64,000 nucleotides of DNA from Stegostoma tigrinum. Its lineage: Eukaryota. Where the stretch lies: the NCBI RefSeq assembly GCF_030684315.1, contig NC_081365.1, forward strand, positions 39,702,985 to 39,766,984, written 5' to 3'. Both the position numbers and the translations under genes were made by a program. The notes under the pieces were generated by a model. That model saw only the letters and a program-made list of their open reading frames with translations. It was not told where the DNA came from and did no database searches. Every line of letters begins with the position of its first letter. Position 1 is the stretch's first letter. Positions 939 through 63,503 of this stretch are shown here, in pieces.

Positions 939-966
939 GACGTTTCGGGCCGAGACCCTTCATCAG
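939..966 (-). ncRNA. Minimal type-I hammerhead ribozyme motif (PLE terminus)
   Basis: CUGAUGA-A-GGG-UCUCGG-CCC-GAAA-CGUC; core intact, palindromic ACGU in place of stem III. Confidence 0.75.
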
Positions 967-2385
967 AGAGGGGGATGGGGAGGGGGAACTGGAATAAATA
1001 GGGAGAGGGGGAGGCGGACTGAAGATGGAGAGAAAACAAGATAGGTAGAGAGGAGAGTATAGGTGGGGAGGTAGGGAGGGGATAGGTCAGTCCAGGGAAG
1101 ATGGACAGGTCAAGGAGGTGGAATGATGTGGTAGGTACTAAATGGAGATGCGGCTTGAGGTGGGAGGAAGGGATGGGTGAGAAGAAGAACAGGTTAGGGA
1201 AGCAGAGACAGGCTGGGCTGGCTTTGGGATGCAGTGGGGGGGAGGGAACGAGCTGGGCTGGTTTTGTGATGCAGTAGGGGAAGGGGAAATTTTGAAGCTT
1301 GTGAAGTCCACATTGATACCATTTGGCTGCAGGGTTCCCAAGCGGAATATGAGTTGCTGTTCCTGCAACCTTTGGGTGGCATCACTGTGGCACTGCAGGA
1401 GGCCCATGATGGACATGTCGTCTGAGGAATGGGAGGGGGGAGTTGAAATGGTTTGCGACTGGGAGGTGTAGTTGTTTGTTGCGAACTGAGCGGAGGTGTT
1501 CTGCAAAGCAGTCCCCAAGCCTCCGCTTGGTTTCCCCAATGTAGAGGTAGCCACACCGGGTGCAATGGATACAATATACCACATTGGCAGATGTGCAGGT
1601 GAACATCTGCTTGATATGGAAGGTCATCTTGGGGCCTGGGACGGGGGTGAGGGAGGAAGTGTGGGGGCAAGTGTAGCACCTCCTGCGGTTGCAGGGGAAG
1701 GTGCTGGTGTGGTGGGGTTGGAGGGGAGTGTGGAGCGGACAAGGGAGTTGCGGAGAGAGTGGTCTCTCTGGAAGGCAGACAAGGGTGGGGATGGAAAAAT
1801 GGCTTGGGTGGTGGGGTCGGATTGTAGATGGCGGAAGTGTCGGAGGATGATACGTTATATCCAGGAGGTTGGTGGAGTGGTATGAGAGAATGAGGGGGCC
1901 GGGGTGTGAGGGATGTGTTGCAGGAAATGCGGGAGACGCGATCAAAGGCGTTCTCGACCATTGCGGGGAGAAATTTGCGGTCCTGGAAGAACGTGGAAAT
2001 CTGGGATGTGTGGGAGTGGAATGCCTCATCCTGGGAGCAGATGCAGCAGAGGCGGAGGAATTGGGAATAGGGGATGGAATGTTTGCAGGAGGGTGGGTGG
2101 GAGGTGGTGTATTCTGGGTAGCTGTGGGAGTCAGTGGGCTTGAAATGGACATCAGTTTCTAGCTGGTTACCCGAGATGGAGACAGAGGTCCAGGAAGGTG
2201 AGGGATGTGTCCTACCTACCACCTCATCCCGCCTCCTTGACCTGTCCATCTTCCCTGGACTGACCTATCCCCTCCCTACCTCCCCACCTATACTGTCCTC
2301 TCTACCTATCTTCTTTTCTCTCCATCTTTGGTCCGCCTCCCCCTCTCTCCCTAGTTATTCCAGTTCCCTCTCCCCATCCCCGTCT

Positions 2386-2413
2386 CTGAAGAAGGGTCTA
2401 GGCCCGAAACGTC
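2386..2413 (+). ncRNA. Minimal type-I hammerhead ribozyme motif
   Basis: CUGAAGA-A-GGG-UCUAGG-CCC-GAAA-CGUC. Confidence 0.75.
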
Positions 2414-2943
2414 AGCTTTTGTGCTCCTGAGATGCTACTTGGCCTGCTGTGTTCATCTAGCTCCACACTTTGTTATATTGTGAAGGATCCTCCTGTTTCA
2501 GCTTCTGCCTGTAAGCTCACACTTGCACGATAAATTCATAAATTTGGAGATGAAATGTTGCCTGGAGAGTAATCTGCTTGGAAGGATGATGGATCTGACA
2601 AATATGCAAACTGACTTACGTTAATCACCGCTTGAAAATCAAAGCGGAGGAAGAGAAAAAGAAAAATGAACCAACAACAAAAAAAAAGGCTTGTAACCTT
2701 GAACATTACCCAATTAATACTTAAAAAGGAAATGAGAAAAACAGTTATTCACTGCGAATACGGGGTCCGTGAAAACTTCACCACTGCTGCGGAGTGTAAG
2801 TCAACATTAAACAAAATGGGCTCAGGTTAAAAATCCAGCTTCTCAAACAAACATTCCACAAAAAAAAAGCCATTGCCTAAATTTGAGTGTTAGGAGACAA
2901 TAAAACCCCTCTTTCAAGAAAAGCTTGTAATTTGGCTCCATTT

Positions 2944-2993
2944 TAATCTAGCTAATTTAAATCTAACTAATCTAATTTAATCTAATCTAAATT
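2944..2993. repeat. Degenerate (atcta)n microsatellite
   Basis: aatctagctaatttaaatctaactaatctaatttaatctaatctaa. Confidence 0.7.
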
Positions 2994-4592: not shown

Positions 4593-4752
4593 CATATGTT
4601 TCCCAGATTCAAAACATTCAAATCATCCTACATTAGAAAGGCAGCTATTTTGTTAGATAATCAGCAGTCTTCTATTAAATCACATTGAAAGGCACAACAA
4701 TTTGTTATCCGAGGATTGTCAATAGTTTGATAACATTAAATTGAGAACCTAC

Positions 4753-18014: not shown

Positions 18015-18153
18015 AAATAAAAGCTGAAAGAGCTGCAGATGCTGTAAATCAGGAACAAAAACAAAAAAGTTACCAGAAAAGCTCAGCAGGTCTGGCAGCA
18101 TCTGTGAAGGAAAAAACAGTTAACATTTCGGGTCCAGTGACCATGCCTCAGAA
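18015..18153 (-). mobile_element. PLE terminus fragment (family 2) with decayed hammerhead
   Basis: Homologous to the left part of the 19261-19552 element; core mutated (CUGAGGC...CCCGAAAUGUU). Confidence 0.7.
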
Positions 18154-19260: not shown

Positions 19261-19552
19261 AAAAACCTAAAGAAAGGCAGATGCTGTAATTCAGGAACAA
19301 AAACACAGTTGCTGGAAAAGCTTAGCAGGTCTGGCAGCATCTGTGAAGGGGAAAAACAGAGTTAACATTTCGGGACCGGTGACCCTTCCTCAGAACCCAG
19401 ACCCGAAACATTGAAGGGGAAAAACAGAGTTAATGTTTCGGGTCTGGGTTCTGAGGAAGGGTCACCGGTCCCGAAATGTTAACTCTGTTTTTCCCCTTCA
19501 CAGATGCTGCCAGACCTGCTAAGCTTTTCCAGCAACTTTGTTTTTGTTCCTG
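19261..19552. mobile_element. ORF-less palindromic PLE derivative (family 2) with two hammerhead motifs
   Basis: 123-bp arms 19290-19412 and 19432-19554, nearly perfect. CUGAGGA-A-GGG..CCC-GAAAUGUU on both strands. TSD aacagcttat(c/t)ttaat at 19245-19260 and 19553-19568. Confidence 0.85.
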
Positions 19553-19765
19553 AACAGCTTATTTTAATCCAGTTACGTTATCTTAGCTTTCTTAGTGGCC
19601 AGGGCAGGTTTTCATAATAAAAGTCATATTTTTATTACAATCAAACCTTCTGTAAAAAGGTAAATGTTAAGCAATTCCTTGTGAATTGGATAAGCAAACA
19701 AAACAAAAATAGTAGCCCTTGCACCTCTTGTAAGCAAAGTAGCAATAGTGCACAGATATTGGCTT

Positions 19766-21772: not shown

Positions 21773-23783
21773 TATGGAGACAAGGGATGTAAAAATAAAT
21801 GATGAGGTTATCTGGGAAAAAAAAAGGAACAGTAGCCTCATGTCCCATTGCTGATATCAACTAGTCCACCAGCGTTTGGTTTCATGAAAACAAAGCAAAG
21901 CAGTCAGGTAGTGACTTGACAAAGATGCAATGCTGTACATGAGAAACCTCTACAATTGTAATTTTTGGACTGAGCAAGCTGGAGCCCTGCACTCAGGAGT
22001 CCAGCATAAAAAGGTGCTATTCTGCCTGAAGAGGATCCTGTTGTCAAGGTCCTTATATTTGACCCCAGGTGGAAAACTGCTTTTCCTCACTTCAAAATAC
22101 CAGCCTAAGCCATCTGGGCTGTGACACACTTTTGATGACCCAAACGGAATCACAAATGACAGATGTGACCAAAATAAGGAATTCCTAAAAAACGACAACG
22201 ATAAATGCATTCTAAAAAGATGACCGAGTTGGTGGTTTGCTATTACTTTGGCTATGTCAATTGACAAAGTTTTAGCCACACCATAAAAACGGAACTGGCA
22301 GCATTTATTCTAATGTAAAGCCAGACTGAGCCTGGCAACTGAGTCAATGAACCAAACAGCCACATGAATCAATTATTCCACTTTTTCATACCACCGCATT
22401 GGGGATCATTGTAATATGGAACAGGGAGTGGCAAACTACAAAGATATTTCCAGTCATGACAATCCTGGAGTATCAGAGTTCATCTGGATCTTAAATGGAA
22501 AACTTTGGTCCAACGTAATCACTTTCTTCTGCCTTCACATCAACCACAGAATTGGTTCTGCTTATGACAAAAACTATGACTGGTTTGCCTTCAAGCTCAA
22601 GTAACATAAAAGATAATCAGAGTCCTATTAGGTTTTCTGTAGACAGGTAGTTCAATTGCCTGCAAACTCCTACAGGTTAATACTGAATCAGAGTCCGAGT
22701 GTACTCTATCGATTGTAAAGCTATTCTGTTTAATATTCAGGGTCAAAATTCGACCCGTGGTCCTTTATCAAGAACAATTTTTTTCGTCACTTATATGAAA
22801 CAGAATTCTACCATAAGACCACAAAAACATCTGGTACAAATATGGACTGGTAGAATACTTTAAACTAATTTAATATGGACTTGAGTCACATTATGACTAC
22901 CATCACATACATAATTTCCCCATTATGCCCCATAACTCCCAAATGTTCCAGTCAGAGTCCCATATTGAAAATAGTGGTTACCCAAAAGTGTACACTGGTG
23001 ACTACAGTGAGAGGGGGGAAAAAAAATGGTGACATTAGATGAGAGGTCAACAATTAAAATAGTATGCTTGCATTGCTCCTTCCGTGCCTTCGTGTTTGTA
23101 TTTAAAAAGTCTACACACCGTAAGCAAAAGAACAAGTGTAAATTGAGAGCAAAAAATTCACAAACATTGCTGGCAGATCATTTGTACAATATGTAACTGT
23201 TAGTGAGTCACAATGGCATTTTAACTAATTATAAAACTCATTGTTAGCAGAAAGAAAGAAAAAAAAATCAGGCATATTTAGTCATTAAATGGCAATGAGA
23301 CTAATGGTCTGAAACTGAAAACATACATAAAAGGGAATGTCTTTTATTTGAGAAAGAGAGTCATACTTGTATCAAGTGCCAATTTTGCCACATTAAAATG
23401 ATGCAACAAATTCAAAGAAACCAACATATGCATCAACAGTACAGGACATTTAAAATAACCTCCAGCAACTGAAACATTAATTCTCTCCATACTGAATCTA
23501 GTGATGTCATAAACTGAAAGTAAGTGTGTTGTGGTATCCATCTATTGCATAGGCCAGACTACATCTCACACGTTTACTTGTCATGACATTAAAACAGAAA
23601 GCTTCAAAATCTGCCCTAATAGGTAAAAGCTATTAATCATATCTTCATTTAAATTTCCTGAATAGTGTAATTTTGTACCAGAGAGCAGCTGGAATAGAAA
23701 ATCGCAAACAATTGATGCACTGAATTATCCAGATAGAGGATACGATCACATCCTGCTTTCTAAAATGATGCATTTGTGTACTG

Positions 23784-23989
23784 AGATAATGGATTCTCCA
23801 GGATCTGCAGTTCCCAAGATAACAAAGTGTGAAGCTGGATGAACACAGCAGGCCATGCAGCATCTCAGGAGCACAAAAGCTGACGTTTCGGGCCTAGACC
23901 CTTCATCAGAGCTCTTTTGCGTCAGCTTTTGTGCTCCTGAGATGCTGCTTGGCCTGCTGTGTTCATCCAGCTTCACACTGTTATCTTGG
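23784..23989. mobile_element. ORF-less palindromic PLE derivative (family 1)
   Basis: Arms ~23815-23885 and ~23920-23989. TSD atttgtgtac at 23772-23781 and 23990-23999. Confidence 0.85.
23882..23909 (-). ncRNA. Hammerhead ribozyme motif, intact core with extended stem I
   Basis: AAGAGCU-CUGAUGA-AGGGUCUAGGCCC-GAAACGUC-AGCUUUU on the PTGFRN sense strand. Confidence 0.75.
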
Positions 23990-24133
23990 ATTTGTGTACA
24001 GGTGCTTTTATTAATCCAAGAACTTTACGGTTCCTAAACATGTCCACAACTATACTTCGTGTAGTCATGAGAATCTTTTCTTGTCCATTGAAGTGGTTTT
24101 CTTTGACATATCTAGATGTTGAAGTAACTCTTG

Positions 24134-26640: not shown

Positions 26641-26956
26641 TATATTTTTTGAGCACTAAGTGCCTAACATACACAACCACCTATATCACTTCAAGAGCAT
26701 CAGAACGTAGTTTTTAAAAAACCCTCTAACTTCACATGCCAGCAACCATCCTTGGCATGGCAAATCCAGAACCAGAATTAGGAGAAGCAAGTGATTGACG
26801 TAGCTGTAAAAAATGAAACTAGATATATTTACGTCTCCAAAGAATACTGGAGAGAGATGCTGTCAGTATTAGGTAGAAAATTTACTCAAGAGAGGAAATG
26901 TTCAACTGAGAGTAAAAATTCCACCCACAGCCCGAAGTTCAGGCTTGACATTCAAT

Positions 26957-27072
26957 GATAACAAAAGTGTGGGGCTGGATGAACACAGCAGGCCAAGCAG
27001 CATCTTAGGAGCACAAAAGCTGATGTTTCTTTCTGAGTGTTACTTTAGGATGAAGTGTCTAGGCCCAAACGT
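26957..27072. mobile_element. Degraded PLE terminus fragment
   Basis: gataacaaaagtgtggggctggatgaacacagcaggcc... followed by a decayed core gatgaagtgtctaggcccaaacgtt. Confidence 0.65.
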
Positions 27073-27208
27073 TGTTAATGAGAAATTTGTTTTAAAAACC
27101 ATATAGATTCCTCTGGCAGTAACAGTCATGGATGCTTGAGTTATCATTATACTTAAAAAAAAGTATGCAATCTAATCTGTTACATTTTAGGTGCTGATGT
27201 TACTTCAG

Positions 27209-36565: not shown

Positions 36566-39082
36566 AAAAACCTGGGTGGCTGGGAACGAAAGTAACTATT
36601 GAAATAAGACAAAATTTCATTTTGGACAATTGTCAACTATTTTTGTTTTTTTTTTCCCCCCAGTCTTCCGTAAAGTTTAGAAAAGCATTTCACAGAAGCA
36701 TTACAAAGTTAAATTAGGCACCGAAGAAAGGACTTGGGTACATAACTTGATTGACAAGGTTGGCTTTAACAAAGAAGACAGGCAGAGATTTAGGGATGAG
36801 GCTTCCTAATTGAAAGGCAGGATAGGTCTGAAAACCTGAGTGGTCAGCTGCTACATTGCTATTACCCCAAATCGCTTTCAAGCCAAGAAAATTTGAGGGT
36901 TAAAAATCTACAAATAATTAACAACTGAAGGGCTGTGAAGAATGAATGGAAACAAAATTTCAGAACTCCAGCTTGGTCTTTAAATCTTACAAAGTGGATA
37001 CAATCTTTGGGCCGAAGCGATGGAATAATTTTGCCAGTATGACAGTGTTCATTTGGAATAGAAGAATCAGCACAACACGTGCAGGAGAAGGCAGATCAAT
37101 GTCAAAAACAAAGCAGGAACAGTACAGTTGGAGGCAGCAAGAAAGCTCCTATCAGATAGTGGGAGAAACTTAGGACAATCCTTTTTAAAGCAGCTTCTGA
37201 ACTCCACAGTGGACCAGTGGGAAATAGCCAAACTGAAAAACACCTCATCGACTATCAAGTGCCAGATTGTATAGGTTCTCTATCTTGGCAAAGTGCAATG
37301 GAAGATAACTATTCAATTTAAAACAAATGAGTCTTGAAAAACACTGGGGCTGGGAAGGGGGTTTAAACCCATCCACAAGGGGCCTGCAGCTGATGAGAAC
37401 CTAGTTGGGTAGGTCTGCTTGACGCAGAGCTTGCTTCCTGTCAGGAGAGAGCAACTGCCAGGCACCTAACACAATTCTTCTTCTCTCTCCACCACCACCC
37501 CACCCCCCCAACCCGCTTCCCTGCTGAAACCTGGAGGAGAAAATCCAAATTAGTCTCCTTTAATTGCTTTGTGGCCCTTAATAAGCCATTCCATGACAAG
37601 GGCTGTATGGAGGCAGGGAAATGTTACACCAGGCAAGCTATTTTTGACTCCCATTGTTAGTAGACTATAGCGTAGGAAGGGGAAGGGATTAGGTGGCTTC
37701 AAAATCAAGCCCTTAGTTTTTCCACGTAGGAGGGGGCACAAATAATTATAAAAAGAGCGAAGGCCAACTGTTATGCCAGATTTTATTTCATTTCAGCATT
37801 AAATGCATAATGCTATTTGACGTGAGATAACAATGTTGTTACAAGATCATTACTGAAATTTTCCTCTGTGTCATCAGGACTACCATTTGAGTAGTCAAAA
37901 AAATAAAGTTATGAAAAGATGGACTGGAATATTTTAGGTCGTGACTTAGGCCAATGCTGGTATAATATATTTTACAAGTCTAGTAATAAAATGTTTTTTC
38001 TAAAAACCTAACCTCAGGATCAAGGTATCAGAAAGCATTTCATATCCAATTAAGCCTAAGGCATAATCATGGTTTTGTACACAATCAATGTTCCCAAAAC
38101 AGAATATGGGACAAACAACAACTTAATCTGTTTTTTCAAAGGTGTTTGTTAGGGGAAAAAACACAAGTAAAGACACTGAAAGAACTATCAACACTTTAGA
38201 TACCATCATTGAATATTTCACATTCACACAAGACAGTAACTCAATTTAACATCTCAAACATCTATAAAATTCAAAGAATAGCACCTAAGTGTCAACAGCT
38301 GACATGCTTAATTCCTGGAACAGAGTTTGGAATTACAATCTCTTGACGCAGACAAAAATGATACTAAACAACTAGAAAAGAAAGATAGTATTGTGTCCCT
38401 TTACAATCCATTCTTTGTATGCTGTAAGTAAGATCAAAGTTTCAAATACTAGTAATGATTATGCCTATATCAGGCATCAAAATGTTTATCCTGAAACTGC
38501 ACACAGTTTGACAGTGCAGAGTTGATTTTACTTACCCAATGTATATTTCACCAGATTCAGAAATCAGGCATTTTGCACTTCAACTGTTAATCATTATGCA
38601 GAATCCACATGCATTTTACGATTTGCAATTCTCACGAAGGATCAAGGATAGTCAGGGTACTAAAACCAACAGTGCTCAGTGGGAAAGGAAAACTAACTTG
38701 GAACTGTCTTGCATGTTATAGGATTCTTAGCAGTATCGCAATTCAACCCTAAGGCCAGTTATGTACTTTCATAAATCGTACAGAACCTTGATTAGGCACT
38801 ATGTCAACAGGTTTGCACTTTGCCAGGATTGCATGCACATACCTCAAAAAAAAGTTCTAACCAATTATAGTTTAATGCAAATTAGAATTGCCAAGTTCAG
38901 AAAAGCAGCAGCTCCTCTTGATCGTTATTCTTCAAACTTAGAAGATTTTCAACCCTGTTAGTTATTTTGAAAAATCTGGAATTAAACAAAACAGATAGCA
39001 ACAGATCTCATTCCTTGATTGGTAGCATTTTTGTTTTCAATCACAGTGGGTCAGGTTGCATCCATGGAAAGAAAGCAAGCAG

Positions 39083-39205
39083 AGCTCTGAAGAAGTCAGA
39101 CTCGAAACATTAGCTTGGTTTCTCTCCACTAGTGCTGCCTGACTTGCTGCAATTGCCAGCATTTTGTTTCAGTTCAGATTTCAGAACCTGCAGTAATTTG
39201 TTTCT
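39083..39205 (+). mobile_element. PLE terminus fragment (third family) with hammerhead-like core at 39087-39111
   Basis: AGCU-CUGAAGA-AGUCAGACUC-GAAACAUU-AGCU, followed by sequence resembling the family 2 terminus. Confidence 0.6.
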
Positions 39206-39934: not shown

Positions 39935-42900
39935 GGTGATGTTGGTGTAGTTGAAAGGCTTAGGACTGGGGACTCTGGGTTCAAATCCCACCATGGCAGA
40001 TGATGGAATTTTAAATTAAATTAATACTGAAAGAAAGTTAGTTTACTCACTGCTCATTTCTGCAAAGAAATGAAAACTTCTGGTTCACCAATGTCCTCGT
40101 GGAATGAAAATCTGTTGTCCTTATCTGGTCTGGCCTACACATAATTGCAGACTCACAGTAATGTGATTGACTTTCAACTGCCTACTGAAAATGACCTGGC
40201 AAGCAATTCAGTTGTATCAAACCACGAAGAGCAAATAAAGGAATGAAACCAAGAAGATAACCCAGTAATGACAAAGTCCTCTTACCAAGATCTGGGGGCT
40301 TGTGCCAGAATTGGGAGAGCTGTCCCACAGACTAAACAAGCAACAGCCTGAGGTTGTTTGTGAAGTATGATTCTAAAAAAATTATGTGCTGGAAACTACT
40401 AAAATCATCCAAGTGTTTTTGTGCCCCACTAGCAGGGCAGGCCCACAGGAGGTGGCAGCACAGCAGTACACAATCTGTGAGCCTTAACCTGTACTCCAGA
40501 AACCATTGCGTCAGGTCAAATATGGGCAAAGAAACCTCCAGCTAACAAATCAGTACTCCTCCATATTGAACACAATCCGGAAGCATCCGAGTTAATGGTA
40601 ATGGCACAGCATGTACTTTGGATGGGGAATTTCAATGTCCATCACCAAGACTGGCTCACTAGCAACAGTGAGTTTGCAGAGCTGTAAAGAGTACAGCAGG
40701 TCTGTGACATGTGCTGAAGGGACCAAGGGGGGAGAAGTTCTTTTTGACCTCATCCTCACCAATCTATTCGTAGCAGATGCTTCAGCCATGATAATGTTGG
40801 TAGGAATGGCCAGTGCTCAGTTCGTGGAGACGGGAGTTGCATCTTAACATTGAGGACATTGTCCATCGTGGTGTGTCAACAAACAGCATGCCAAATAAGA
40901 AACTTCGAACAGATCTGGCAATTCAAATCTGGGCACCAAAAAGGCACAGTAGATTATCAGCAGATGGTATTCAACCACATCTGCAACCTTATGGTCTAAC
41001 ACATGTCCAGCTCTCTCACTAACTAAGATTGACTGCTCAGTTTGATGGTCGAGAAATACTGCAGGAAGGAAAGCAGAAAGTAGCACCAGGAATACTTAAA
41101 AGTGCGATGTCAAACAGGCAAGGCGCGTCAAACAGCAGAAGCATGTGCAATAGACAAGGTTATATGATTCCACAACCAATGGATCAGACCTAAGCTCTGC
41201 AGTCTTGCCATATCCAGACGTAAATGGTGGGGGACAGCTAACACGAGTTGGAAGCACAAGGATTCTCATCCTTAAAAGATGGGGGTGCCCATCATATTAG
41301 TACAAAAGTCAAGGGTGAAATATTTGCATCTCAGCCAGAAGTTCTGAGCAGATGATCCATCATTTTCTCCTCCTGCAGTCCCTAACACAGATTATATCAT
41401 TCATTCTGATATAATTCATTCTACATGATATCAGGAAACAGCCGAGACAATGGATAATGCAAAGACTGACAAAATCATGATAACAACACCAAAGAATCTT
41501 TTCTCCAGAGCAAGCCACACCATTAGCCGAGCTATTCCAGCAAAGCTGCAATACTAACCCCTACTCTGTTTTCTCTGACCTTTGCCTCAGAAGGTTTGCG
41601 GACACCAATTGGACTGCAGAAGCGTAGAAGCAATGACACATAGTACTGGAAGCTTCTCCTGTGTATAGAATTCAGAAGATAATGTGAAGTCAGGAATGCT
41701 CAGAGGAAAAGCAGCCACTATCCAACAATTCCACTCTCAATCATCAGCAAAATGATGGAATGGTTCATAGATATGGACATAAAGTTACACTTGTGAAGTA
41801 ATGGTCTGGTCATTGGATTCTGCTAGGGCCACTGAGCATCTGATCTCATCAGAACCTTGATCCATACATGGACATAAAACAAGGGAGCTGAATTCCAGAC
41901 AGAAGTCAAGACTGACTGCTTTTGGCATCAACTGAATTTGAGACACAGAGACTGAACAAAACTGGAGTCAATGAGAATAGAGGGGAAAATACTTATGACT
42001 CATAACTGGAAGTAAGACAAACAGACAGTTGCAGATAACAAGGTGTGAAGCTGGATGAACACAGCAGGCCTGGCAGCAGACAAACAGGAACGCTGACGTT
42101 TCGGGTCTGGACCCTTCTGCAGAACTGGGAGAGGGGAAGGGGGTTCTGAAATAAATAGAGAAGGAGGGGCGGTGATAGCAGGTGGATAGTACAGCAGATA
42201 GGGGAGAGAGAAGACGGACAGCTCACGGAGGCAGGGGTGAAGCTAGTAAAGGTGAGTGTAATAAGGAATTTGGGATGGGGGGTTGGTCAGTGAGGTGGGA
42301 GGAGCACCTATCCACCCTTCTCACCTCACTGACCAAGCCCCACCTCCACTTCCTACCTACACTCATCTTTACCAGCTCCATCTCTGCCTCCTGGAGCTGA
42401 ACATCTTCTCTCCTACCTATCTGCTCTACTATCCACCTGCTATCACCGCCCCTCCTTCTCTATTTATTTCAGAGCCCCCTTCCCCTCTCCCAGTTCTGCA
42501 GAAGGGTCCTGGCCTGAAATGTCAGCTTTTCTGTTCCTCTGATGCTGCTTCGCCAGCTCCACACCTTGTCATCTCAGACCCCAGGATCAGCAGTTCCTAC
42601 TATCTGAGACAGTTTGCAGTTGTTGGAGATCAATCTCCTCACCCCCAGGACATCACTGTAAGCAGTGCCTCTCAAGGTCGTGAGTTAGTCCCAGCCATGC
42701 TTAGTTGCTTCATCAATTACCCTCCCCTCATTATATGGTCTCAAGTAGGGATGCTCTTTGATGAATACACAACATTCGGAATGAGTCAAGACTCTCCAAA
42801 TCCTGAAATAGTGCACGTTGAAATGCAGCAATATCTGTACAACACCCAGACTTGGACTCATAAGTGCCAAGAAACAATTGCGCCAGACACACCAGGCAAT

Positions 42901-43630: not shown

Positions 43631-43644
43631 CGAATGATGTCCAT

Positions 43645-43727
43645 TTCCGAAGGAGGGTCTGGGCCTGAAACATCAGCCTTCCTGCTCCTCTGATGCTGCT
43701 TCGCCCAGCTGTACATTGGTTATCACT
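43645..43727 (+). mobile_element. Degraded PLE terminus
   Basis: ccgaaggagggtctgggcctgaaacatcagccttcctgctcctctgatgctgc is a decayed core plus terminus. Confidence 0.6.
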
Positions 43728-43989
43728 GAAGACCTTATTATCGCTTTCATGTTGCTATTGCTATCCACAATCATCATAAAACTCTGGTTCACAAATATTC
43801 TTTGAGTGGAAATCTGTTGCCATTATCTGCTCCGGCTTATAAGTGATTCCAGACCCACAGCAAGGGCCTTCTAAAATGGTTTACGACTCTGCTCATGAGC
43901 AGTTAGCAATGGGCAATAAATGACTCCCATATTCTATGAAAGAATAAAATTGAAGCAAGCTTTGAACTATTCCCACAAATCCTTCACTG

Positions 43990-50043: not shown

Positions 50044-50255
50044 AGAATAGGAATTGCAGATGCTGGAGAATCTGAGATAACAAGGTGTAGAGCTGGATGA
50101 ACACAGCAGGCCAAGCAGCATCAGAGGAGCAGGAAGGCTGACATTTCGGGCCTAGACCCTTCTTCAGAAATTCTGAAGAAGGGTCTAGGCTGGAAACGTC
50201 AGCCTTCCTGCTCCTCTGATGCTGCTTGGCCTGCTGTGTTCATCCAGCTGTACAC
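50044..50255. mobile_element. ORF-less palindromic PLE derivative with two hammerhead motifs
   Basis: Centre cttcttcag-aaatt-ctgaagaag; cores at 50140-50167 (-) and 50173-50200 (+). TSD aa(c/t)attatcactt at 50031-50043 and 50256-50268. Confidence 0.85.
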
Positions 50256-52854
50256 AATATTATCACTTTTTGTTTTCCTGATCAACCTGTTCATAGATGT
50301 TATTACTCACTTCTTGAGAAGGTGGGACTTGGACCCAGATCTCCCAGTCCAGAAGTGAGGACCTGTCCATTGCACCCCAAGCCCTCAACGTTAATATTAA
50401 TTGGCTAGCTCTGCAGCATGTTATCTATAGTTTGTCATTTATACTTGTTATTTTGTACAAATCAAGGCCTGAAATTCTTATGCCAACATATTTGAACATT
50501 GAAACTACAGGAAAATTGTACAGTAAATGATAAATGGGACCTTCAGTGCCCAAAGGTGTGTAGCTTTAAAAGAAATTGCTTCATTCAGTTTTACAATGTG
50601 ATAAAAACTGATTTATTTAATAATTTTCAACTGCAATCATAATATAACATTCAAGTCTATAACAGGATTAAAAAAGAAAAAAAAATGCATTTCAACGTAC
50701 ACAGTTTCAGTTCATGGACCTTCTGATTTATTATTTCAGGTCCTTATCATACCACCTTATTTCTTGCAGAATAAATTTCAACCAGTTCTCAGCTTCTTGT
50801 ATGAAATGATTGTAGAAAATTTCAAAATTTAATTCTCAAGCACAATTACTTGTCACACGTCAATACAGTTATCAATGGAGATACCACTCAAACCATGTAA
50901 AAATACTGGACTGGTATAAATAAACTTTTATCACTGGGCTAATTCCAGTCAATATCCTTGATGTCATAAAGCACTTTCATATGCAGAGTTATGTTCTGGT
51001 CCATTCAATTTCCAAAGGACTGATGAAAGTGAATAGAACAACTGATTCCCACATTATATATTATGGATGACTGGAGATGACAGTTGAATCCATTTACTAT
51101 GCCTTTGTCTGACGTTTCTCTGAACTCAAACAACAACAGACGTAGACAGAATCATTCTGTCTTTTTTTTTGTTCATTTCCATCAATAGAGCCTTGTTTTT
51201 AGTATAAACAGTGATATCAACGTCGTCATATTCCTGTCATCTTCCAGCCAGTGAAGTCATTGGAAAAATGAAGAAAGACTTTATGTAGGTTTAGTAAACA
51301 AAGGACAGCAATATAATAACATGTCACAAGGTGCCTTAATATGACTGAAAACACAGGGGAAACTGGAAGTGGGCTAATAGATATTATGGATGGGTGATGG
51401 TGAGTTTTGTGTTGAGGACTGCTGACTGTATTTTTGAGGGTGCAAGACTTGTGCTGGAGAAGGGGCAACTGTTAAAGGAAAGTATCAATGTCAAGCACCA
51501 TGAGGACTAGGAAGAGCAGTTCAATGCCAAAAAATGAATAGGGAAAGGATATCACAGGAGCAGAGTTTGGAAAGGTTTAAAAACTCCATTACCGGTGAGA
51601 GTTCAGAATTGTTTGTTAGAAAACTGAGGGGAGATGGGCACCAATGAGGAAGAAGGAAGGAAGGAAATAACAGATACAGAGGTAGAGTTGCTGAAAATAA
51701 GGCAGTCAAAGGTAAAGATGCAACAGTGGTTCAATACATTATTGTAGCAGAAATGCAAGGATGTTGAAAAACTAAGGAAGAAAAGGCAAAATAAAGTCTT
51801 GTGAATTAGAGATCGAATTCATGGAAGGAGTAGAATTATTATGTTATGTCAAGATAAGTGGCAGTGTGGATGGTAATAAAAAGATCAGACTAGGAATCAT
51901 TCTTGCTGAACAAATTATCTCATTTGCGTGTTGACAAATCTATTGCCTGTGGACAAAATAGTTTAATTGCAGGCTGTACTTAAATATAAAAAAAAATGCA
52001 TTTTATGCACCAGTGCATAACAGTTTGTTTGTGAGCCCTGAGTTGACAACAGGGAAATCAGAAGTTTAAAACAAAACTAAAATGCTGGAAATGCTGGAAT
52101 TCTGGCATGAAGGTAGAAACTGTATCCAAAACACCCCCAATTCAGATCTCCTGCATCATCCTCACCTCCCAGCCCAGTCAATACCTGACATGCTGCCTCA
52201 TCTTCCTGTGGCTGACTCAGGCCTGCTAAACTGTCATTCACGGGACCCTTACAGTTTCCAAAACCTAGTGAACAATGGCCAGAATGCATCCCAGCAGTCA
52301 GTGAAGGGATCTGAACCAACAGTCTCAGCCTCTGCCGAAGCACCGTAGAGGAACATCAGCTTTGAAATTGTAATTCACCAAGAATTTGTCTGTGGGCATT
52401 TTTCATAATGTTATGTTATTAAGCTTTTTTTTATAACACCAGATTAAAGTTATTGAAAAGCCCCACTTTCACATCTTTCCCATTATTAAATACGAAGTAC
52501 CAATTCACTCTGAAACTTGCTTCATGATGAATGTCCAGATGTTATGGAACTCAGTGAGCTGATGTACAATGGATGTATGAGTGGTTGAACAGCTGCCCAA
52601 GGAGGGGCTGAGGGGACGATTGGTCCTGTTGATGGGAGTGATTCATTTCTTATGTTTTACAGTAGGTGCATCTTTGCAATATTAGCACACTCTAGGCCCA
52701 GTATAATCAGTAGATCTCGTGAAAGGTGTCCCATTTTCAGCCCCTTAGTCTGACCTTCTCTAAGTTCCCTTCATCTGAAGAAAAGAGAAGAGTCCCTTTA
52801 TTCTCTTCCACCTGTATTCTTGTCTGGTGTCAATGTTGTGCAGGATGCGAATAC

Positions 52855-56337: not shown

Positions 56338-57933
56338 CAAGATAATAAAATGTGAGGCTGGATGAACACAGCAGGCCCAGCAGCATCTCAGGAGCACAAA
56401 AGCTGACGTTTCGGGCCTAGACCCTTCATCAGAGAGGGGGATGGGGAGAGGGTTCTGGAATAAATAGGGAGACAGGGGGAGGCAGACCGAAGATGGAGAG
56501 AAAAGAAGATAGGTGGAGAAGAGAGTATACGTGGGGAGGTAGGGAGGGGATAGGTCAGTCCAGGGAAGACGGACAGGTCAAGGAGGTGGGATGAGGTTAG
56601 TAGGTAGGAGATGGAGGTGCGGCTTGGGGTGGGAGGAAGGGATGGGTGAGAGGAAGACCAGGTTAGGGAGGCAGAGACAGGTTGGACTGGTTTTGGGATG
56701 CAGTGGGTGGAGGGGAAGAGCTGGGCTGGTTGTGTGGTACAGTGGCGGGAGGGGACGAACTGGGCTGGTTTTGGGATGCGGTGGGGGAAGGGGAGATTTT
56801 GAAGCTGGTGAAGTCCACATTGATACCATTGGGCTGCAGGGTTCCCAAGCGGAATATGAGTTGCTGTTCCTACAACCTTCGGGTGGCATCATTGTGGCAC
56901 TGCAGGAGGCCCATGATGGACATGTCATCTAATGAATGGGAGGGGGAGTGGAAATGGTTTGCGACTGGGAGGTGCAGTTGTTTATTGCGAACCGAGCGGA
57001 GGTGTTCTGCAAAGCGGTCCCCAAGCCTCCACTTGGTTTCCCAATGTAGAGGAAGCCACACCGGGTACAGTGGATGCAGTATACCACATTGGCAGATGTG
57101 CAGGTGAACCTCTGCTTAATGTGGAATGTCATCTTGGGGCCTGGGATAGGGGTGAGGGAGGAGGTGTGGGAGCAAGTGTAGCATTTCCTGCGGTTGCAGG
57201 GGAAGGTGCCGGGTGTGGTGGGGTTGGAGGGCAGGTGGAGCGAACAAGGGAGTCACGGAGAGAGTGGTCTCTCCGGAAAGCAGACAGGGGTGAGGATGGA
57301 AAAATGTCTTGGGTGGTGGGGTCGGATTGTAGATGGCGGAAGTGTCGGAGGATGATTTGTTGTATCCGGAGGTTGGTGGGGTGGTGTGTGAGAACGAGGG
57401 GGATCCTCTTTTGGCGGTTGTGGCGGGGGCGGGGTGTGAGGGATGTGTTGCGGGAAATGCGGGAGACGCGGTCAAGGGCATTTTCGACCACTGTGGGGGG
57501 AAAGTTGCGGTCCTTGAAGAACTTGGACATCTGGGATGTGCGGGAGTGGAATGCCTCATTGTGGGAGCAGCTGCAGCGGAGGCAGAGGAATTAGGAATAG
57601 GGGATGGAATTTTTGCAGGAGGGTGGGTGGGAGGAGGTGTATTCTAGGTAGCTGTCGGAGTCCGTGGGCTTGAAATGGACATCAGTTACAAGCTGGTTGC
57701 CTGAGATGGAGACTGAGAGATCCAGGAATGTGAGGGATGTGCTGGAGATGGCCCAGGTGAACTGAAGGTTGGGGTGTAAGGTGTTGGTGAAGTGGATGGA
57801 CTGTTCGAGCTCCTCTGGGGAGCAAGAGGCTGCGCCGATACAGTCATCAATGTAACGGAGGAAGAGGTGGGGTTTGGGGCCTGTGTAGGTGCGGAAGAGG
57901 GACTGTTCCACATAACCTACAAAGAGGCAGGCA
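56338..57933 (-). mobile_element. Penelope-like element, 5'-truncated (RT from YIDD motif, GIY-YIG endonuclease, 3' terminus)
   Basis: FLRYIDDCIG..LTFLDLSV..HFKPTD..SIPYS, then the GIY-YIG region, with stops and frameshifts. Intact hammerhead at 56405-56432. Confidence 0.92.
56405..56432 (-). ncRNA. Minimal type-I hammerhead ribozyme motif
   Basis: CUGAUGA-A-GGGUCUAGGCCC-GAAA-CGUC. Confidence 0.75.
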
Positions 57934-58782
57934 TCTTGGGTTTACATGAAAGCAGGTTGCATGAATCATTTGTATCGCTGTAAAAATAATTATAAAATCG
58001 ATGGCTGAGCAATTGGAAACATGCTTGAATCAGGATCTTAAGGGATCATTTAACTGTGTTTAAAACATTTTCTAACACTCCCTAAGCTTTTGACTGAATG
58101 CCACATTGCATTACACATGCAGGACTACGCAGGAAAAGGTTACTGTGCTACCTGTAAAGGAGCTCAGTTCTGAAACTTAATCATATAACATCTAAACAAT
58201 TTTCTAAAACTGGGAGGGTGAGTAACCAAGGTGCTTCTAAAATAACAGTGTCTTTATTTTTTTAAGGATTGCACAATGGTGAGATCTGTCTGTTACTCAT
58301 ACAGTTGACAACAAGTAAACCAGAGAGAACAAAATCAAGCATCGAAACAACCATCTCTTTTAAAAGGCAGCCTTAGGGAGAGCACTCTTGCTTTGACTGC
58401 TGCACAGAAACATGTTAGTCCTACGAGAAGGAATTTTTTTCACACACAGCTGCCAACTTCCCAGCAATACATTTGGGGACTGCTTTCCTAAAAGTTATTT
58501 AGAGATACAGGTACAGTTACAACATTTAAAAGACACTTGCATAAGTTCATGAATAGGAAAGGTTTAGAGGTACATGGGCAGGATTAGTTTAGTTTTGCAT
58601 TGTGTTGTGCATAGACTAGTTGGAGCAGTGTCTGATTCCACGATGTTTGACTCTTTTACTGTACAGCTGTTTGTTGGAAAGATGATTTAACCCACTGATG
58701 TCATTCGAAAACTGGACTCAATCACTGGACTGGCAAATATTTCACCTCTGTGTTGCCTAGAACATTTGTGGAATAGCAGTAT

Positions 58783-59285: not shown

Positions 59286-60268
59286 TAATAGGATATGCAG
59301 ATGCTGGAGAATCCGAGATAACAAGGTGTAGAGCTGGATGAACACAGCAGGCCAAGCAGCATCTTAGGAGCAGGAAAGCTGATGTTTTGGGCCTAGACCT
59401 TTCATCAGAAATGGGGGAGGGGAAGGGGGCTCTGAAATAAATAGGGAGAGAGGGGGAGGCTGATCGAAGATGGATAGAGGAGAAAATAGGTGGAGAGGAG
59501 ACAGACAAGTTAAAGAGGTGAGGATGGAACCACTAAAGGTGAGTGTAGCTGGGGAGGTAGGGAGGAGATAGGTCAGTCCAGGGAGGACGGACAGGTCAAG
59601 GGGGCAGGATGAGGTTAGTAGGTAGGAAATGGGGGTGTGGCTTGAAGTGGGGGAAAGGAATAGGTGAGAGGAAGAACAGGAGGGACCACTCTCTCCGTGA
59701 CTCCCTTGTCTGCTTCACACTCCCCTCCAGCTCCACCAAACCCAGCACTTTTCCCTGCAACTGCAGGAAGTGCTGCACCTGCCCCCACACCTCCTCCCTC
59801 ACCCCCATCCCAGGCCCCAAGATGACCTTCAACATCAAACAGAGGTTCACCTGCACATCTGCTAATGTGGTATACAGCATCCGCTGTACCCGGTGTGGCC
59901 TCCTATACATCAGGGAAACCAAGCAGAGGCTTGGGGACCGCTTTGCAGAACACCTCTGCTCGGTTCGCAATAAATGACAGCACCTCCCAGTCGCAAACCA
60001 TTTCAACTCCCCCTCCCATTCTTTAGATGACATGTCCATCATGGGCCTCCTGCAGTGCCACAATGACGCCACCCAAAGGTTGCAGGAACAGCAACTCATA
60101 TTCCGCTTGGGAACCCTGCAGCCCAATGGTATCAATGTGGACTTCACAAGCTTCAAAATCTCCCCTCCCCCCACTGCATCCCAAAACCAGCCCAGCTGGT
60201 CCCCGCCTCCCTAACCTGTTCTTCCTCTCACCTATCCCGTCCTCCCACCTCAAGCCGCACCCCATTTT
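59286..60268. mobile_element. Rearranged PLE: inverted 3' terminus (59286-59678, -) joined to a GIY-YIG segment (59679-60268, +)
   Basis: ORF 59609-59977 contains CNCRKCCTC..NVVYSIRCTRCGLLYI.ETK. 59625-59678 is the reverse complement of ~60215-60268. Hammerhead decayed. Confidence 0.85.
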
Positions 60269-60849
60269 GATGGTCACAGGGAAAATAAGATATCACACTG
60301 ACTACCAAGTGAATCTCACCAAAGCCAGTTCAAAAACTTGTCATTAGAGCCAGCAATCCATAAGAGGAATGATATGGCATTGTATGATAAAAAGAGGATA
60401 ACTAATTAAATCAGAGAAGAGAAAAATCTCGTGACCATTTTCTCGGAAAATTAAAACGTTATACAATTCATTTCCTTGCATTTTTTTGCTGGAATAACTA
60501 AATCACGCAGTTTGATTAAATCTAGCTCCCTACCCTGCCCTGATGCCTTCATGCCTTTCTGTGGCTCAAGTTTGCAAAGGCAGTCTCGATTGTATCAGTT
60601 TCCTGTGAATGTAATTTGGAATATTGGGACCTTCACTCTTTATTATATTCCTGTTGGACGATGTGGAACAAAAAAAAATCAAAAGGAAACATGCTGGAGC
60701 AAACAGCATAAATAGTACTGAAAATAGTTTCCATCGACTGAAAAAGCATGGTTATCTGTTCATCTTGTCACAATCCCATGCAGGAAGCCATCGTACAAAG
60801 GTGCATGCTGTACTGCATAGCACTGCACTAGGCCAATGCAAAGAGTCAA

Positions 60850-61285
60850 AATAAAAGGGGTTTCAGTTCTACTGTAGCTTTCACAGCCTCAAGACCTTAC
60901 ACTTAACAAGATATTTCTAAAGTGTGGTTACTGTCATAAGACAGAAAACACAGCAGCCAATTTGCACATTGTAAGCCCCACAAACAGTATTAAGGTAACC
61001 AGATAATTTGTTTCTTGCAATGTTAGTTGAAGACTAACTATTGGTTTGGAAACTGCAAGGAATTTCCTGCTGCTCTTAGATCCAGAACCATGTAATGTCT
61101 TACATCTGCCTGAGATAGCAGGCAAGCCCTCAATTTAACACCATGTCTTTAAAGTAGTGCTTCAACAGTGCAGCACTCCTCAATCCGAACTGGACAGTCA
61201 GGCGAAATTTTGAACTCAAGTGTCTGGCGTGGAACTTGAAACCCATAAACTCTGAATCAGAATGGTATCACTGAACCACAGCAGG
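60850..61285 (-). mobile_element. Deu-domain-type SINE (SacSINE1-like)
   Basis: ctgtttgtggggcttacaatgtgcaaattggctgctg core and tRNA-like head on minus; family call from memory. Confidence 0.6.
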
Positions 61286-63122
61286 CATCAGAAACATACT
61301 GACTGATAGTAATTTAAGAATGCTACTCTTGCTAAATTGTGTTGCACATGAACATCATCTGAATCTTGATCTGAAACACGCTCCAATCTGTATTTGACAT
61401 AGACAGTGTATTAATTGAATAGTGAAAATGTGTTTTGCTAAAAATAATTTACAAGTATTTCACTCAACCAAACACTTGCCTGAACAGGAATATGGCAGTA
61501 AAGGAGAAAATTCACTTGAGCTTGTTTTATCATCCATCAGAATCTGGCCAATTGGTACCTCAAATGAATGTATCTGTCTTTGCTCTATATCCTTTGATGC
61601 ACTAACAAAATAAGTATCTGCTGATCTCAGTGAACATGTCAATTAATCCAGCATTTTGGAGAACAATTTCCAGATTTTCATGAACATTTCTGAGAAAAAT
61701 TACATCCTGATTTCCTTCATAACATGGTTCTAATTTAAAGATTACGCTCCGTTATTCTGCATTTCTCCACCAGACCAATTATTCCTCAGTTTACTCTATC
61801 AATTCTGTAATCATTTAAAATATTTCAAATAGACCATCTTCAATCTTTTAAGTTCAAGGAAGTATGTGTAGTCCGTCCACAATATTTGATCCTTTGAATC
61901 TCGGGAAAAAGTTGTACTGGTCCCATTAGAGACCAAATAGAGGGAAGACTAAAATAGTTGGCCAGTGAGGAGGGCACCCAGATATTCTGCCTTTGTTCCC
62001 AACCACAGTCATTTTCATAAGGGCAGAAGAGCAGATTCCAGAATCTACAACGGACCCGGGTCTATGAAGGAAACAGTGACAACATGACAGTCAATCGAGA
62101 TAAGTTTTTAATTTATTTTAAAGGAAGAGCTGAACTTTAGAAGCTGTTCATTTTTGAACCATGGATTGGAGGTGGCAAGAGTTTAACAGAGAAGTAAAAT
62201 GGTTTTACCTTCTTCATAGTTCATCAGAGTATGTTGTAGCCTGCGTTATATCAGTGTTCGGTAAGCTGAATTATGACAGTGCTGTGATGGAAGATATAAT
62301 TAGCCATTACCAGATTGCTACTTCTGCCAACTGGCGAGCCGTCAAGTAAAAGGTCAACATTGTTAATGTGGAAAAATCTTTAGATGAGTTAAGAATGTGA
62401 GTCTGATGGATTAAGTAGTGGAGTCAGTTTCTTGAGAGGGTGGTTAAGTATGATAACCTAGTATGAATGTTCCATGTTTTCCTCGTACCCTTATGTATCT
62501 ATTCAGACAGTGGTTCTGAAGCCTGTTTGTTTACTTGAGTGGGGTGGGGCTGTGTGCTCTTGCCTGCAGTCTAACTCCATACTCACCTCTCAAGTGACTG
62601 ACATTGTTTACCCAATTGGTTTGAAAAGTCTGTTTGGGAACTTGAATTTATTTTCATGTTATTGAATGGCTTCCTATTTTTGTAACAGAGCTTGTGTGAG
62701 TTCTGATCATAAAGTGGGTAATGGGTAAAGGGTGAAAACATTGAGGGGGGGATGTTAAGATGACAGGTGTGAAGGGACAAGATTAAGGAGGATTACAGGG
62801 GTTAGAACATTCAACTGTATACAGCTGAGCTGCTGATTGCTAAAGAGGCACAGAGCCAAGGCTGTTTAGGAACGGATGAAGGCCTTTTAATCTGCCCATT
62901 TTAGATTTACCCACAGCAGGACTGCATCTAGGCCTTTCAGGGCATGCGCTCCCAGGTGCCTGCAGTCTCAAGATGGAGGCAAGAGTGTGATGACGGGATT
63001 CATCACACCTCCTGATTCTTGCCATTAAAATTATAGCACTTGGTGTTAAAATTCCAGTGAGCATGTGCACGGGGCCTTTAAAGAAGAATCAAGTCTATGA
63101 AAATAGAATGAGATTAAGGCAG

Positions 63123-63503
63123 TCCAACCTGTCTCTGCCTCCCTAACCTGTTCTTCCTCTCACCCATCCCTTCCTCCCACCCCAAGCCGCACCTCCATCT
63201 CCTACCTACTAACCTCATCCCACCTCCTTGACCTGTCCGTCTTCCCTGGACTGACCTATCCCCTCCCTACCTCCTCACCTATACTCTCCTCTCCACCTAT
63301 CTTCTTTTCTTTCCATCTTTGGTCCGCCTCCCCCTCTCTCCCTATTTATTCCAGAACCCTCACCCCATCCCCCTCTCTGATGAAGGGTCTAGGCCCGAAA
63401 CGTCAGCTTTTGTGCTCCTGAGATGCTGCTTGGCCTTCTGTGTTCATCCAGCCTCACAATTCATTATCTTGAATTCTCCAGCATCTGCAGTTCCCATTAT
63501 CAC
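63123..63503 (+). mobile_element. Solo PLE 3' terminus with tail
   Basis: Perfect 14-bp TSD tgagattaaggcag at 63109-63122 and 63504-63517. Confidence 0.9.
63377..63404 (+). ncRNA. Minimal type-I hammerhead ribozyme motif
   Basis: CUGAUGA-A-GGGUCUAGGCCC-GAAA-CGUC. Confidence 0.75.

What the first reader, a model, noticed from the sequence alone, without database searches (positions are those of the whole stretch)
939..63404. Window is peppered with minimal hammerhead ribozymes carried by Penelope-like termini
Seen: five cores with full consensus (939-966 -, 2386-2413 +, 23882-23909 -, 56405-56432 -, 63377-63404 +), near-intact ones at ~19363-19393 -, 19451-19480 +, 50140-50167 -, 50173-50200 + and 39087-39111 +, and several decayed ones. 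All share CUGANGA-A-stem II-GAAA and an ACGU palindrome (or its CpG-decay product) instead of a stem III. Three sequence families differ in stem II and cleavage triplet (GUC vs GUU) while keeping the core, and stem I co-varies (CU/AG, GUU/AAC, AGCU/AGCU). Established: PLEs encode minimal type-I hammerheads thought to act as dimers. Inference: this genome holds a very large ribozyme load that ORF-based annotation misses.
Basis: partly seen in the sequence, partly recalled or inferred. Interest (0 to 1): 0.72.

Follow-up and report, generated by a model that had tools for sequence, protein, structure and literature searches.

The report
Shark Penelope-element stubs with minimal hammerheads
This shark DNA is littered with short, mostly decayed end-pieces of Penelope-like jumping genes that carry an already known, tiny self-cutting RNA motif; most short pieces start at the motif's first letters and not at its predicted cut site, so they were likely copied from uncut RNA and are unlikely to be a working ribozyme load.

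Summary
The five full cores lie at the stated coordinates (5 matches, 0 in 100 shuffles). They belong to 21 end arms of Penelope-like elements (RT, zinc-finger linker, GIY-YIG) in a carpet-shark-like genome. This is the minimal hammerhead of Cervera and De la Pena 2014, a known class. The scan has noted it before (284 notes, at least 27 genomes). Corrections: only 5 of 21 arms are intact; native helix I is 2 bp, and the longer 'covarying' helices are inversion junctions; close pairs are head-to-head, never tandem; copies decay as fast in the core as beside it (13/148 vs 116/1229); the predicted fold masks the core. Reads suggest about 100,000 copies of the main family, assuming a 3-5 Gb genome. 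The fresher point: 9 of 13 short arms, and the top 5' boundary in two species' contigs, start at the edge of helix I; 0 of 13 start at the cut site. Likely these are cDNA copies of the front end of uncut element RNA. Two contig joints at the cut site hint at occasional cleavage. No cleavage was shown.

The parts
939..966 (-). Intact minimal hammerhead core, subfamily A; predicted cut after 939
2386..2413 (+). Intact core, subfamily A, on the inverted arm of the same insertion; predicted cut after 2413
837..2480 (.). Insertion E1: 5'-truncated PLE (837-2209, minus: RT thumb, linker 1667-1693, endonuclease from 1582, 3' UTR, core, long 3' end) joined head-to-head to an inverted arm (2210-2480, plus, short 3' end); 14-bp target-site duplication with one mismatch
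18019..18153 (-). Subfamily B short arm, decayed core (A9 changed), starts at helix I edge, long 3' end
19262..19554 (.). Subfamily B head-to-head pair (cores 19364-19393 minus, 19451-19480 plus), 99% complementary arms, 57-nt centre made of element pieces; 16-bp target-site duplication with one mismatch
23781..23992 (.). Subfamily A head-to-head pair: intact core 23882-23909 (minus, arm starts at -2), second arm from 23920 lacking the core, inverted tail at 23786-23817
26950..27072 (.). Subfamily A arm starting inside the core (26950-27029, minus) and a 24-nt core fragment (27049-27072, plus) that stops one base before the predicted cut site
27207..27405 (.). Subfamily D head-to-head pair, both cores decayed
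36446..36564 (+). Subfamily B short arm lacking the 5' half of the core
39039..39199 (.). Subfamily C arm (decayed core 39087-39111, plus) with a decayed inverted fragment directly in front (39039-39074, E 0.43)
42033..42606 (.). Subfamily D head-to-head pair with 3' UTR, cores at 42122 (minus) and 42496 (plus), both with A6 changed to C
43641..43730 (+). Subfamily D short arm, decayed
50047..50264 (.). Subfamily D head-to-head pair, cores 50140-50167 (minus, CpG decay only) and 50173-50200 (plus, helix II broken); both arms start at -2/-3
56338..57940 (-). Longest PLE fragment: RT motif YIDD 57843-57854, linker 57172-57198, endonuclease from 57087, frameshifted; intact core 56405-56432; short 3' end
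59286..60267 (.). Subfamily D arm (59286-59685, minus, decayed core at 59408) joined head-to-head to a PLE coding fragment (59680-60267, plus) that breaks off before its core
63118..63506 (+). Subfamily A single arm with 3' UTR, intact core 63377-63404, long 3' end; used for read mapping
63817..64000 (-). Subfamily D arm, heavily decayed core at 63941, runs off the window

Best explanation
These are 21 end arms of endonuclease-bearing Penelope-like retrotransposons, five of which still spell a complete minimal hammerhead; the motif likely cuts only rarely and likely needs the element's own protein, and the genomic copies were likely reverse-transcribed from uncut RNA and are now decaying relics. 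Shown: the motif, its place after the endonuclease and a C-rich 3' UTR, two fixed 3' ends (about +65 and +100 from the cut site), head-to-head pairs, target-site duplications, a fixed 5' start at the edge of helix I, and equal decay of core and flank. Inferred, by analogy with the Anolis element: the element's protein nicks both strands of an AT-rich target and starts reverse transcription inside the RNA at either of the two 3' sites; two cDNAs joined at their far ends give the head-to-head pairs with one long and one short end. Inferred here: the element's RNA begins at the edge of helix I, so priming at the sites nearest the RNA's front makes 95-130-nt stubs that hold the whole uncut motif. 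In free RNA the main family is predicted to fold with the core strand paired over the cut site, so cleavage would need protein to refold it. Selection keeps the motif only in the few active master elements.
For: PLE protein fragments run into the arms: RT fragment 96% identical to a zebra shark protein and 87% to a whale shark one, with homologues carrying RVT_1 and GIY-YIG; linker CX4CX2C and endonuclease motifs. Min-HHR traits of PMC4209133 are met: extra base after A9 in 17 of 17 arms, G10.1-C11.1 in 13 of 19, ACGU palindrome. 3' ends: of 19 arms aligned, 9 end at +64 to +74, 8 at +87 or beyond, 2 elsewhere; contigs peak at +101/+102 and near +66. 5 of 6 pairs with two long-enough arms have one long and one short end, as described in PMC8557442 and PMC3846280. 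5' ends: 9 of 13 short arms (7 insertions) start 0-6 bases before C3, 4 start inside the core, 0 at the cut site. Contig ends with unrelated AT-rich flanks peak one base before C3 in organism A (823 contigs in X1, 21 in X5) and organism B (255 in X8); the cut site is not among the six rows shown per run (lowest X1 row 270). Decay: non-CpG changes 13/148 in the core, 116/1229 downstream. Folding: active dimer -5.5 kcal/mol against -22.8 for two masked monomers and -38.0 for the best dimer. PMC11167929: the Anolis motif cut only with protein, was not needed for insertion in vitro, and no RNA-seq reads ended at its site.
Against: No cleavage, RNA end or promoter was measured. Two of the ten X1 joints listed in table 5c link the tail end to exactly the first base after the cut site (depth 125 and 61, single copy about 18), two window fragments stop at or one base before the cut site (27049-27072; 19400-19412), and the decayed inverted fragment before 39087 may begin there, so some copies may come from cut RNA. 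One search showed 24 of 1633 loose-end rows and undercounted X1. In Drosophila virilis Penelope the start site lies about 120 nt upstream and an intron ends at helix I (PMC2377424, PMC4209133), so a start at helix I is not the known layout. An extra G before the start (a cap signature) is seen in only 3 of 7 window insertions. ViennaRNA ignores the tertiary core and so undervalues the active form. Neptune versus Nematis was not resolved by a tree.
Confidence: 0.7

Rival explanations
1. One reading: the dispersed copies are a large load of working ribozymes that cut host or element transcripts as dimers.
For: About 0.8-1.3 x 10^5 copies of the main family's 3' UTR and at least 0.4-0.7 x 10^5 reaching the core, assuming 3-5 Gb; 5 of the 5 subfamily A arms that cover C3 are intact; the ACGU palindrome and near-palindromic helix II can pair between molecules.
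Against: No tandem same-strand pair in the window; head-to-head pairs fold into long hairpins that bury the core (-39.7 to -48.4 kcal/mol); 2-bp helix I; equal decay of core and flank; published monomers inactive and dimers weak (PMC4209133); 8 of 9 Xenopus dimer elements did not cleave (bioRxiv 2026.07.22.740005).
Confidence: 0.08
2. The motif cuts the element's precursor RNA in vivo as a regular step (release, circularisation or template jumps at the cut end), and a real minority of genomic copies record this.
For: Two tail-to-cut-site joints in X1 contigs (table 5c); fragments ending at the cut site; between-family conservation follows the catalytic pattern, with N7 and N17 free. Unchecked scan notes report a few percent of copies starting there.
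Against: 0 of 13 short arms start at the cut site; the top contig boundary is 29 bases upstream; the direction of the two joints is not given; short matches could place joints there; no reads ended at the site in Anolis (PMC11167929). This rival can be true beside the best explanation for a minority of copies.
Confidence: 0.3
3. The motif is kept mainly as a protein-binding, promoter or splice-border element at the front of the RNA, and its chemistry no longer matters.
For: The 5' boundary sits at the motif's edge; 2-bp helix I and a masking fold; downstream blocks are also shared between families; hammerhead mutants did not change insertion in vitro (PMC11167929); Naiad elements spread without the motif (PMC8557442).
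Against: All 13 core positions are kept between families once CpG decay is allowed for, while N7 and N17 vary, which is what catalysis demands; the Anolis motif cuts with protein and shows the C3/G8 rescue (PMC11167929).
Confidence: 0.12
4. Chance matches or an assembly artefact.
For: Rfam's hammerhead models give no hit up to E 10; a generic descriptor matches shuffles 6 times on average.
Against: 5 vs 0 and 10 vs at most 1 in 100 shuffles; the same sequence lies in contigs and raw reads of four runs and two organisms.
Confidence: 0.01

Closest known systems
Minimal hammerheads (min-HHR) in pseudo-LTRs of metazoan PLEs, Cervera and De la Pena 2014 (PMC4209133; parts 1-2 of 4 read, figures and supplements not seen)
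   Same: Type I core without helix III loop, palindromic 15.2-16.2, extra base after A9, G10.1-C11.1, several families per genome, mostly single dispersed motifs, some close pairs on opposite strands; reported for fish Xena, Poseidon and Neptune elements.
   Different: Helix II 4-5 bp and native helix I 2 bp here (7-8 and 4-5 bp in Schistosoma; 2 bp in D. virilis). Sharks are not named in the text read. Estimated copy number is about ten times or more the 4,000 and 9,000 given for coelacanth and Xenopus, though that compares a read estimate of family copies with descriptor counts.
Poseidon element of Anolis carolinensis (Frangieh et al. 2024, PMC11167929; parts 1-2 of 4 read; supplement text search empty, figures not seen)
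   Same: Hammerhead in the pseudo-LTR, two internal 3' ends 30-40 nt apart, AT-rich targets, copies that include the uncut motif.
   Different: The shark element has the CX4CX2C linker that Penelope/Poseidon lack. A fixed 5' start at helix I is not mentioned in the parts read.
Neptune/Nematis EN+ PLEs (Craig et al. 2021, PMC8557442; passages)
   Same: RT, then zinc-finger-like linker, then GIY-YIG with CCHH; inverted 5'-truncated copy; tail often at one end only.
   Different: All copies here are truncated; no tandem pseudo-LTR structure or intact ORF in the window; clade not fixed by a tree.
Non-LTR retrozymes of animals (PMC7229834, passages and section 15; bioRxiv 10.64898/2026.07.22.740005, parts 1 and 3 of 5 and passages)
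   Same: Type I hammerheads in PLE-related repeats at up to 126,247 motifs in axolotl; one chondrichthyan was sampled in the preprint.
   Different: Retrozymes are tandem arrays, in axolotl with canonical motifs, and yield circular RNA; the copies here are dispersed singles or head-to-head pairs with minimal motifs.

Membership tests
min-HHR of metazoan PLEs | Catalytic boxes CUGANGA and GAAA with NUH triplet | tested here: met
   5 complete cores; family consensus 13/13 for A and D, 12/13 for B and C with one CpG change each
min-HHR of metazoan PLEs | No helix III loop; palindromic positions 15.1-16.1 | tested here: met
   ACGU in the five intact cores; C15.2 in 15 and G16.2 in 15 of 21 alignment rows, the rest T and A
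min-HHR of metazoan PLEs | One unpaired base between A9 and G10.1; G10.1-C11.1 pair | tested here: met
   A in 17 of 17 arms; G-C in 13 of 19, G-U in 2
min-HHR of metazoan PLEs | Short helix I (4-5 bp in the main descriptor families, 2 bp in D. virilis) | tested here: inconclusive
   2 bp shared by 18 of 18 arms; native length 2 in A, 2-4 in D; native upstream of B and C is not in the window; the descriptor's lower limit is in a figure not seen
min-HHR of metazoan PLEs | Located in the pseudo-LTR of a PLE | tested here: met
   Cores at 966 and 56432 are continuous with RT/EN fragments through the 3' UTR
min-HHR of metazoan PLEs | Self-cleavage at N17, weak, as dimer or with protein | not testable with these tools
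   Only folding energies
EN+ Penelope-like elements | RT followed by C-terminal GIY-YIG endonuclease with CCHH | tested here: met
   YIDD, VVYCIHCTRC, YIG, ANHF in order; homologues with PF00078, PF26215, PF01541
EN+ Penelope-like elements | 5' truncation, inverted head-to-head copy, optional 30-40 nt tail at one end | tested here: met
   5 of 6 complete pairs have one long and one short end
EN+ Penelope-like elements | Full ORF between direct pseudo-LTRs (active form) | not tested
   No such copy in the window; no whole genome held
Neptune clade | CX2-5CxxC linker between RT and EN (shared with Nematis) | tested here: met
   CX4CX2C at 1667-1693, 57172-57198, 59756-59782
Neptune clade | Placement in an RT tree with labelled references | not tested
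   No labelled references in hand; Neptune is inferred from the linker and from the preprint finding only Neptune and Poseidon in vertebrates
Non-LTR retrozymes | Tandem repeats each with a type I hammerhead | tested here: not met
   No tandem units among the arms; nearest intact same-strand cores 22.9 kb apart
Rfam hammerhead families | Match to the covariance models | tested here: not met
   No hammerhead family among 27 matches up to E 10

The most novel reading that the evidence does not exclude
The roughly 100,000 stubs are a fossil record of the PLE replication cycle: most are cDNA copies of the capped front end of an RNA that starts exactly at helix I, so that the front hammerhead is born switched off, and a minority start at the cut site and record in vivo self-cleavage. 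A single shark assembly would then answer whether and when PLE hammerheads cut in living cells.
Probability: 0.35. Interest if true: 0.6.

Novelty: new member of a known kind. Interest (0 to 1): 0.3.

Why it matters
The motif class is published, so the catch itself is ordinary. What could matter is scale and geometry. Whether PLE hammerheads cut in vivo is open (PMC4209133, PMC8557442, PMC11167929). A genome with about 100,000 copies of one family, each freezing the 5' and 3' ends of a cDNA, lets that question be asked by counting ends, and the fixed start at helix I gives a concrete, testable site for the RNA's beginning. For annotators: these stubs lie in introns of host genes and are read through in predicted shark proteins, and Rfam misses them.

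Tried and rejected
Rfam scan: no hammerhead hit; the microRNA-like hits are the head-to-head pairs. Whole genome: none held, so no genome-wide descriptor count. Pfam on six PLE fragments: no hits; the homologue searches did identify them. Metagenome scan with one exact pattern: 0 matches. Expression: no RNA holder listed; run X5 is of unrecorded kind and was used only as a further contig set, not as evidence of expression. Summed contig depth was not used as copy number, as the tool warns. Helix I covariation beyond 2 bp: rejected as junction-derived. Helix II and whole-structure covariation: weak (one pair with a two-sided change; 186 of 500 shuffles reach it; score 13 of 500). The ATG about 20 nt after the cut site as ORF start: the reading frames of subfamilies A and B do not agree and none of the 70 proteins tested carried that peptide, so not adopted. 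Cap-derived G: 3 of 7 insertions, not significant. Microhomology alone as the cause of the 5' boundary: the more AT-rich patch about 30 nt upstream is not among the top rows, so not favoured, not excluded. Gene name by structure search: only generic Ig hits. Lunse et al. (RNA Biol 14:1499) and Arkhipova et al. 2017 were not held; only the title of the first was seen; either may already describe shark motifs or the 5' boundary.
Full report
Observation. A profile built from my alignment finds 21 arms at E below 1e-15, 4 small fragments beside them and 11 weak hits that I dropped. The arms fall in 15 insertions covering about 11% of the window. Rfam gives no hammerhead hit.

Host and carrier. The DNA is vertebrate-like (CpG o/e 0.27) with a multi-Ig gene on the minus strand. 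Three insertions carry coding fragments: RT motif YIDD, a CX4CX2C linker, and a GIY-YIG endonuclease with CCHH, all frameshifted. The RT fragment is 96% identical to a zebra shark protein and the endonuclease 92% to a whale shark protein; longer homologues carry RVT_1 and GIY-YIG. So the host is a carpet-shark-like fish and the carrier an EN+ Penelope-like element. The linker points to Neptune or Nematis (PMC8557442, passages); Neptune is inferred, no tree was made.

The motif. It has the published min-HHR traits (PMC4209133, parts 1-2 of 4): an extra base after A9 (17 of 17 arms), G10.1-C11.1 (13 of 19), ACGU in place of helix III. I see four subfamilies (A 7 arms, D 9, B 4, C 1), homologous along the whole 3' end. 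Between families the 13 core positions are kept better than the downstream sequence (A-B 12/13 vs 53/80, p 0.05; A-C 12/13 vs 43/76, p 0.012; A-D not distinguishable, p 0.25; comparisons are not independent), and N7 and N17 vary, as catalysis allows. Within subfamilies A and D the copies show no such protection: non-CpG changes 13/148 in the core, 116/1229 downstream, CpG positions 9/48 (a few flank columns are included). Only 5 of 21 arms keep core and helix II.

The helix I shared by all arms is 2 bp (18 of 18 paired). The 5-7 bp helices at 23909, 19393/19451 and 39087 use letters from inversion junctions, not native upstream sequence. Close pairs are head-to-head on opposite strands; the nearest intact same-strand cores are 22.9 kb apart. 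A transcript through such a pair is predicted to fold as a long hairpin. For subfamily A the core strand pairs over the cut site; the active dimer scores -5.5 kcal/mol against -22.8 for two such monomers and -38.0 for the best dimer; for a B copy -9.6 against -16.8. These energies omit tertiary contacts.

Ends. Of 19 arms aligned to three reference arms, 9 end at +64 to +74 from the cut site, 8 at +87 or beyond, 2 elsewhere; 5 of 6 pairs with two long-enough arms have one end of each kind, the sixth has an inverted tail. This is the known optional tail (PMC8557442, PMC3846280 passages), which in the Anolis element marks two internal start sites of reverse transcription (PMC11167929, parts 1-2 of 4). 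Repeats of 10-16 bp with one mismatch flank 6 of 13 insertions tested, two of them partly overlapping the element's end. At the 5' side, 8 arms have the native upstream; of the 13 short arms, 9 (7 insertions) start 0-6 bases before C3, 4 inside the core, none at the cut site. Public contigs agree: ends with unrelated AT-rich flanks peak at 63376, one base before C3, in 823 contigs of X1 and 21 of X5 (organism A) and 255 of X8 (organism B); the cut site is not among the six rows shown per run (24 of 1633 rows shown, X1 undercounted, and X1 may be the window's own source). Against this: two of ten X1 joints in table 5c link the tail to exactly 63405, the first base after the cut (depth 125 and 61; single copy about 18; direction not given), and two window fragments stop at or next to the cut site. 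A base-by-base count around the cut site remains open.

Copy number. Raw bisulfite reads (X21, 1938 Mb read) give a depth of about 25,800 on one strand over the 3' UTR and at least 12,700 reads reaching the core. Assuming a 3-5 Gb genome (my assumption; X1 contigs total 2.95 Gb) and half the reads per strand, that is 0.8-1.3 x 10^5 and at least 0.4-0.7 x 10^5 copies, intact or not. Published counts: about 4,000 in coelacanth and 9,000 in Xenopus; 126,247 canonical motifs in axolotl (PMC7229834 section 15). The load is large but has precedent in absolute number.

How it likely works. Shown: anatomy, ends, decay. Inferred from the Anolis work: the protein nicks both target strands and primes internally at either 3' site; two cDNAs joined head-to-head give the inverted pairs; the motif cuts only with protein and is not needed for insertion in vitro. 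Inferred here: the RNA begins at the helix I edge, so priming near its front yields 95-130-nt stubs with an uncut motif. I had the boundary before looking at scan notes; the idea that the front is capped came from note e1-8159453, and my check is inconclusive (G before the start in 3 of 7 insertions; 4 of 10 joint rows). A splice border, as in D. virilis, or a protein-set stop are alternatives.

Novelty. The class is published for fishes, coelacanth, amphibians and reptiles; a 2026 preprint sampled one chondrichthyan for tandem retrozymes (parts 1 and 3 of 5 and passages; supplements not seen). Six searches listed no paper devoted to shark PLE hammerheads or to a fixed start at helix I, but Lunse et al. 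and Arkhipova et al. 2017 were not held and figures and supplements of the others were not seen. Reviews were seen as passages. The scan has noted the same thing often: 284 notes in at least 27 genomes hold the search words and 261 in this genome fit a related look-up; these are unchecked and one reports many starts at the cut site, which my window does not show. Verdict: new member of a known kind, interest 0.3; most novel reading (a fossil record of RNA start and occasional in vivo cleavage) probability 0.35, interest 0.6.

Noticed in passing
window 4736-15701 (-) and probably 46159-46554 (-): Host gene with at least five single-exon Ig domains and a likely leader exon 30 kb upstream; Atlas hits include Ig_IgSF3 clusters, so likely an EWI-family gene (PTGFRN/IGSF3-like; the name is recalled, not shown). 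Ten of the hammerhead-bearing insertions would lie in or just beyond it.
   Followed up: partly
window 53005-54770 (-), 19864-20406 (-), 10911-11227: LINE fragments with a Pfam RVT_1 hit (53511-54770), CR1-like by recall; three related copies.
   Followed up: no
window 23786-23817: The optional tail is attached in inverted orientation at the end of a short arm.
   Followed up: no
window 19394-19450: 57-nt centre of the B pair built from element pieces; one piece stops exactly at the predicted cut site.
   Followed up: partly
window 27049-27072 (+): 24-nt core fragment whose 3' end lies one base before the predicted cut site.
   Followed up: partly
table 5c: 4 of 10 X1 rows show a single extra G in front of positions 63373-63379, as a reverse-transcribed cap would leave; direction of these joints is not given.
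   Followed up: partly
window 19478-19505 (+) and 42484-42495 (+): In subfamily B a pyrimidine run and CAG then ATG follow the cut site, which overlaps a branch-point-like TTAAC; in the 42 kb pair a pyrimidine run and CAG end exactly at the helix I edge. Either could be a splice acceptor, as in D. virilis Penelope; not conserved in all subfamilies.
   Followed up: partly
window 63384-63396 and other subfamily A/D cores: Helix II is itself a near-palindrome and is predicted to form a 12-bp duplex between two molecules; the core strand can pair over the cut site, masking it.
   Followed up: partly
protein P0002: A predicted zebra shark protein ends by reading through the 3' UTR and the hammerhead, showing that gene models absorb these stubs.
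   Followed up: no
window 6219-6372, 12401-12508, 16746-16899, 21415-21568; 8870-8933, 40109-40172, 43811-43874: Two further dispersed short repeat families without the hammerhead (D9/D11 and D19).
   Followed up: no
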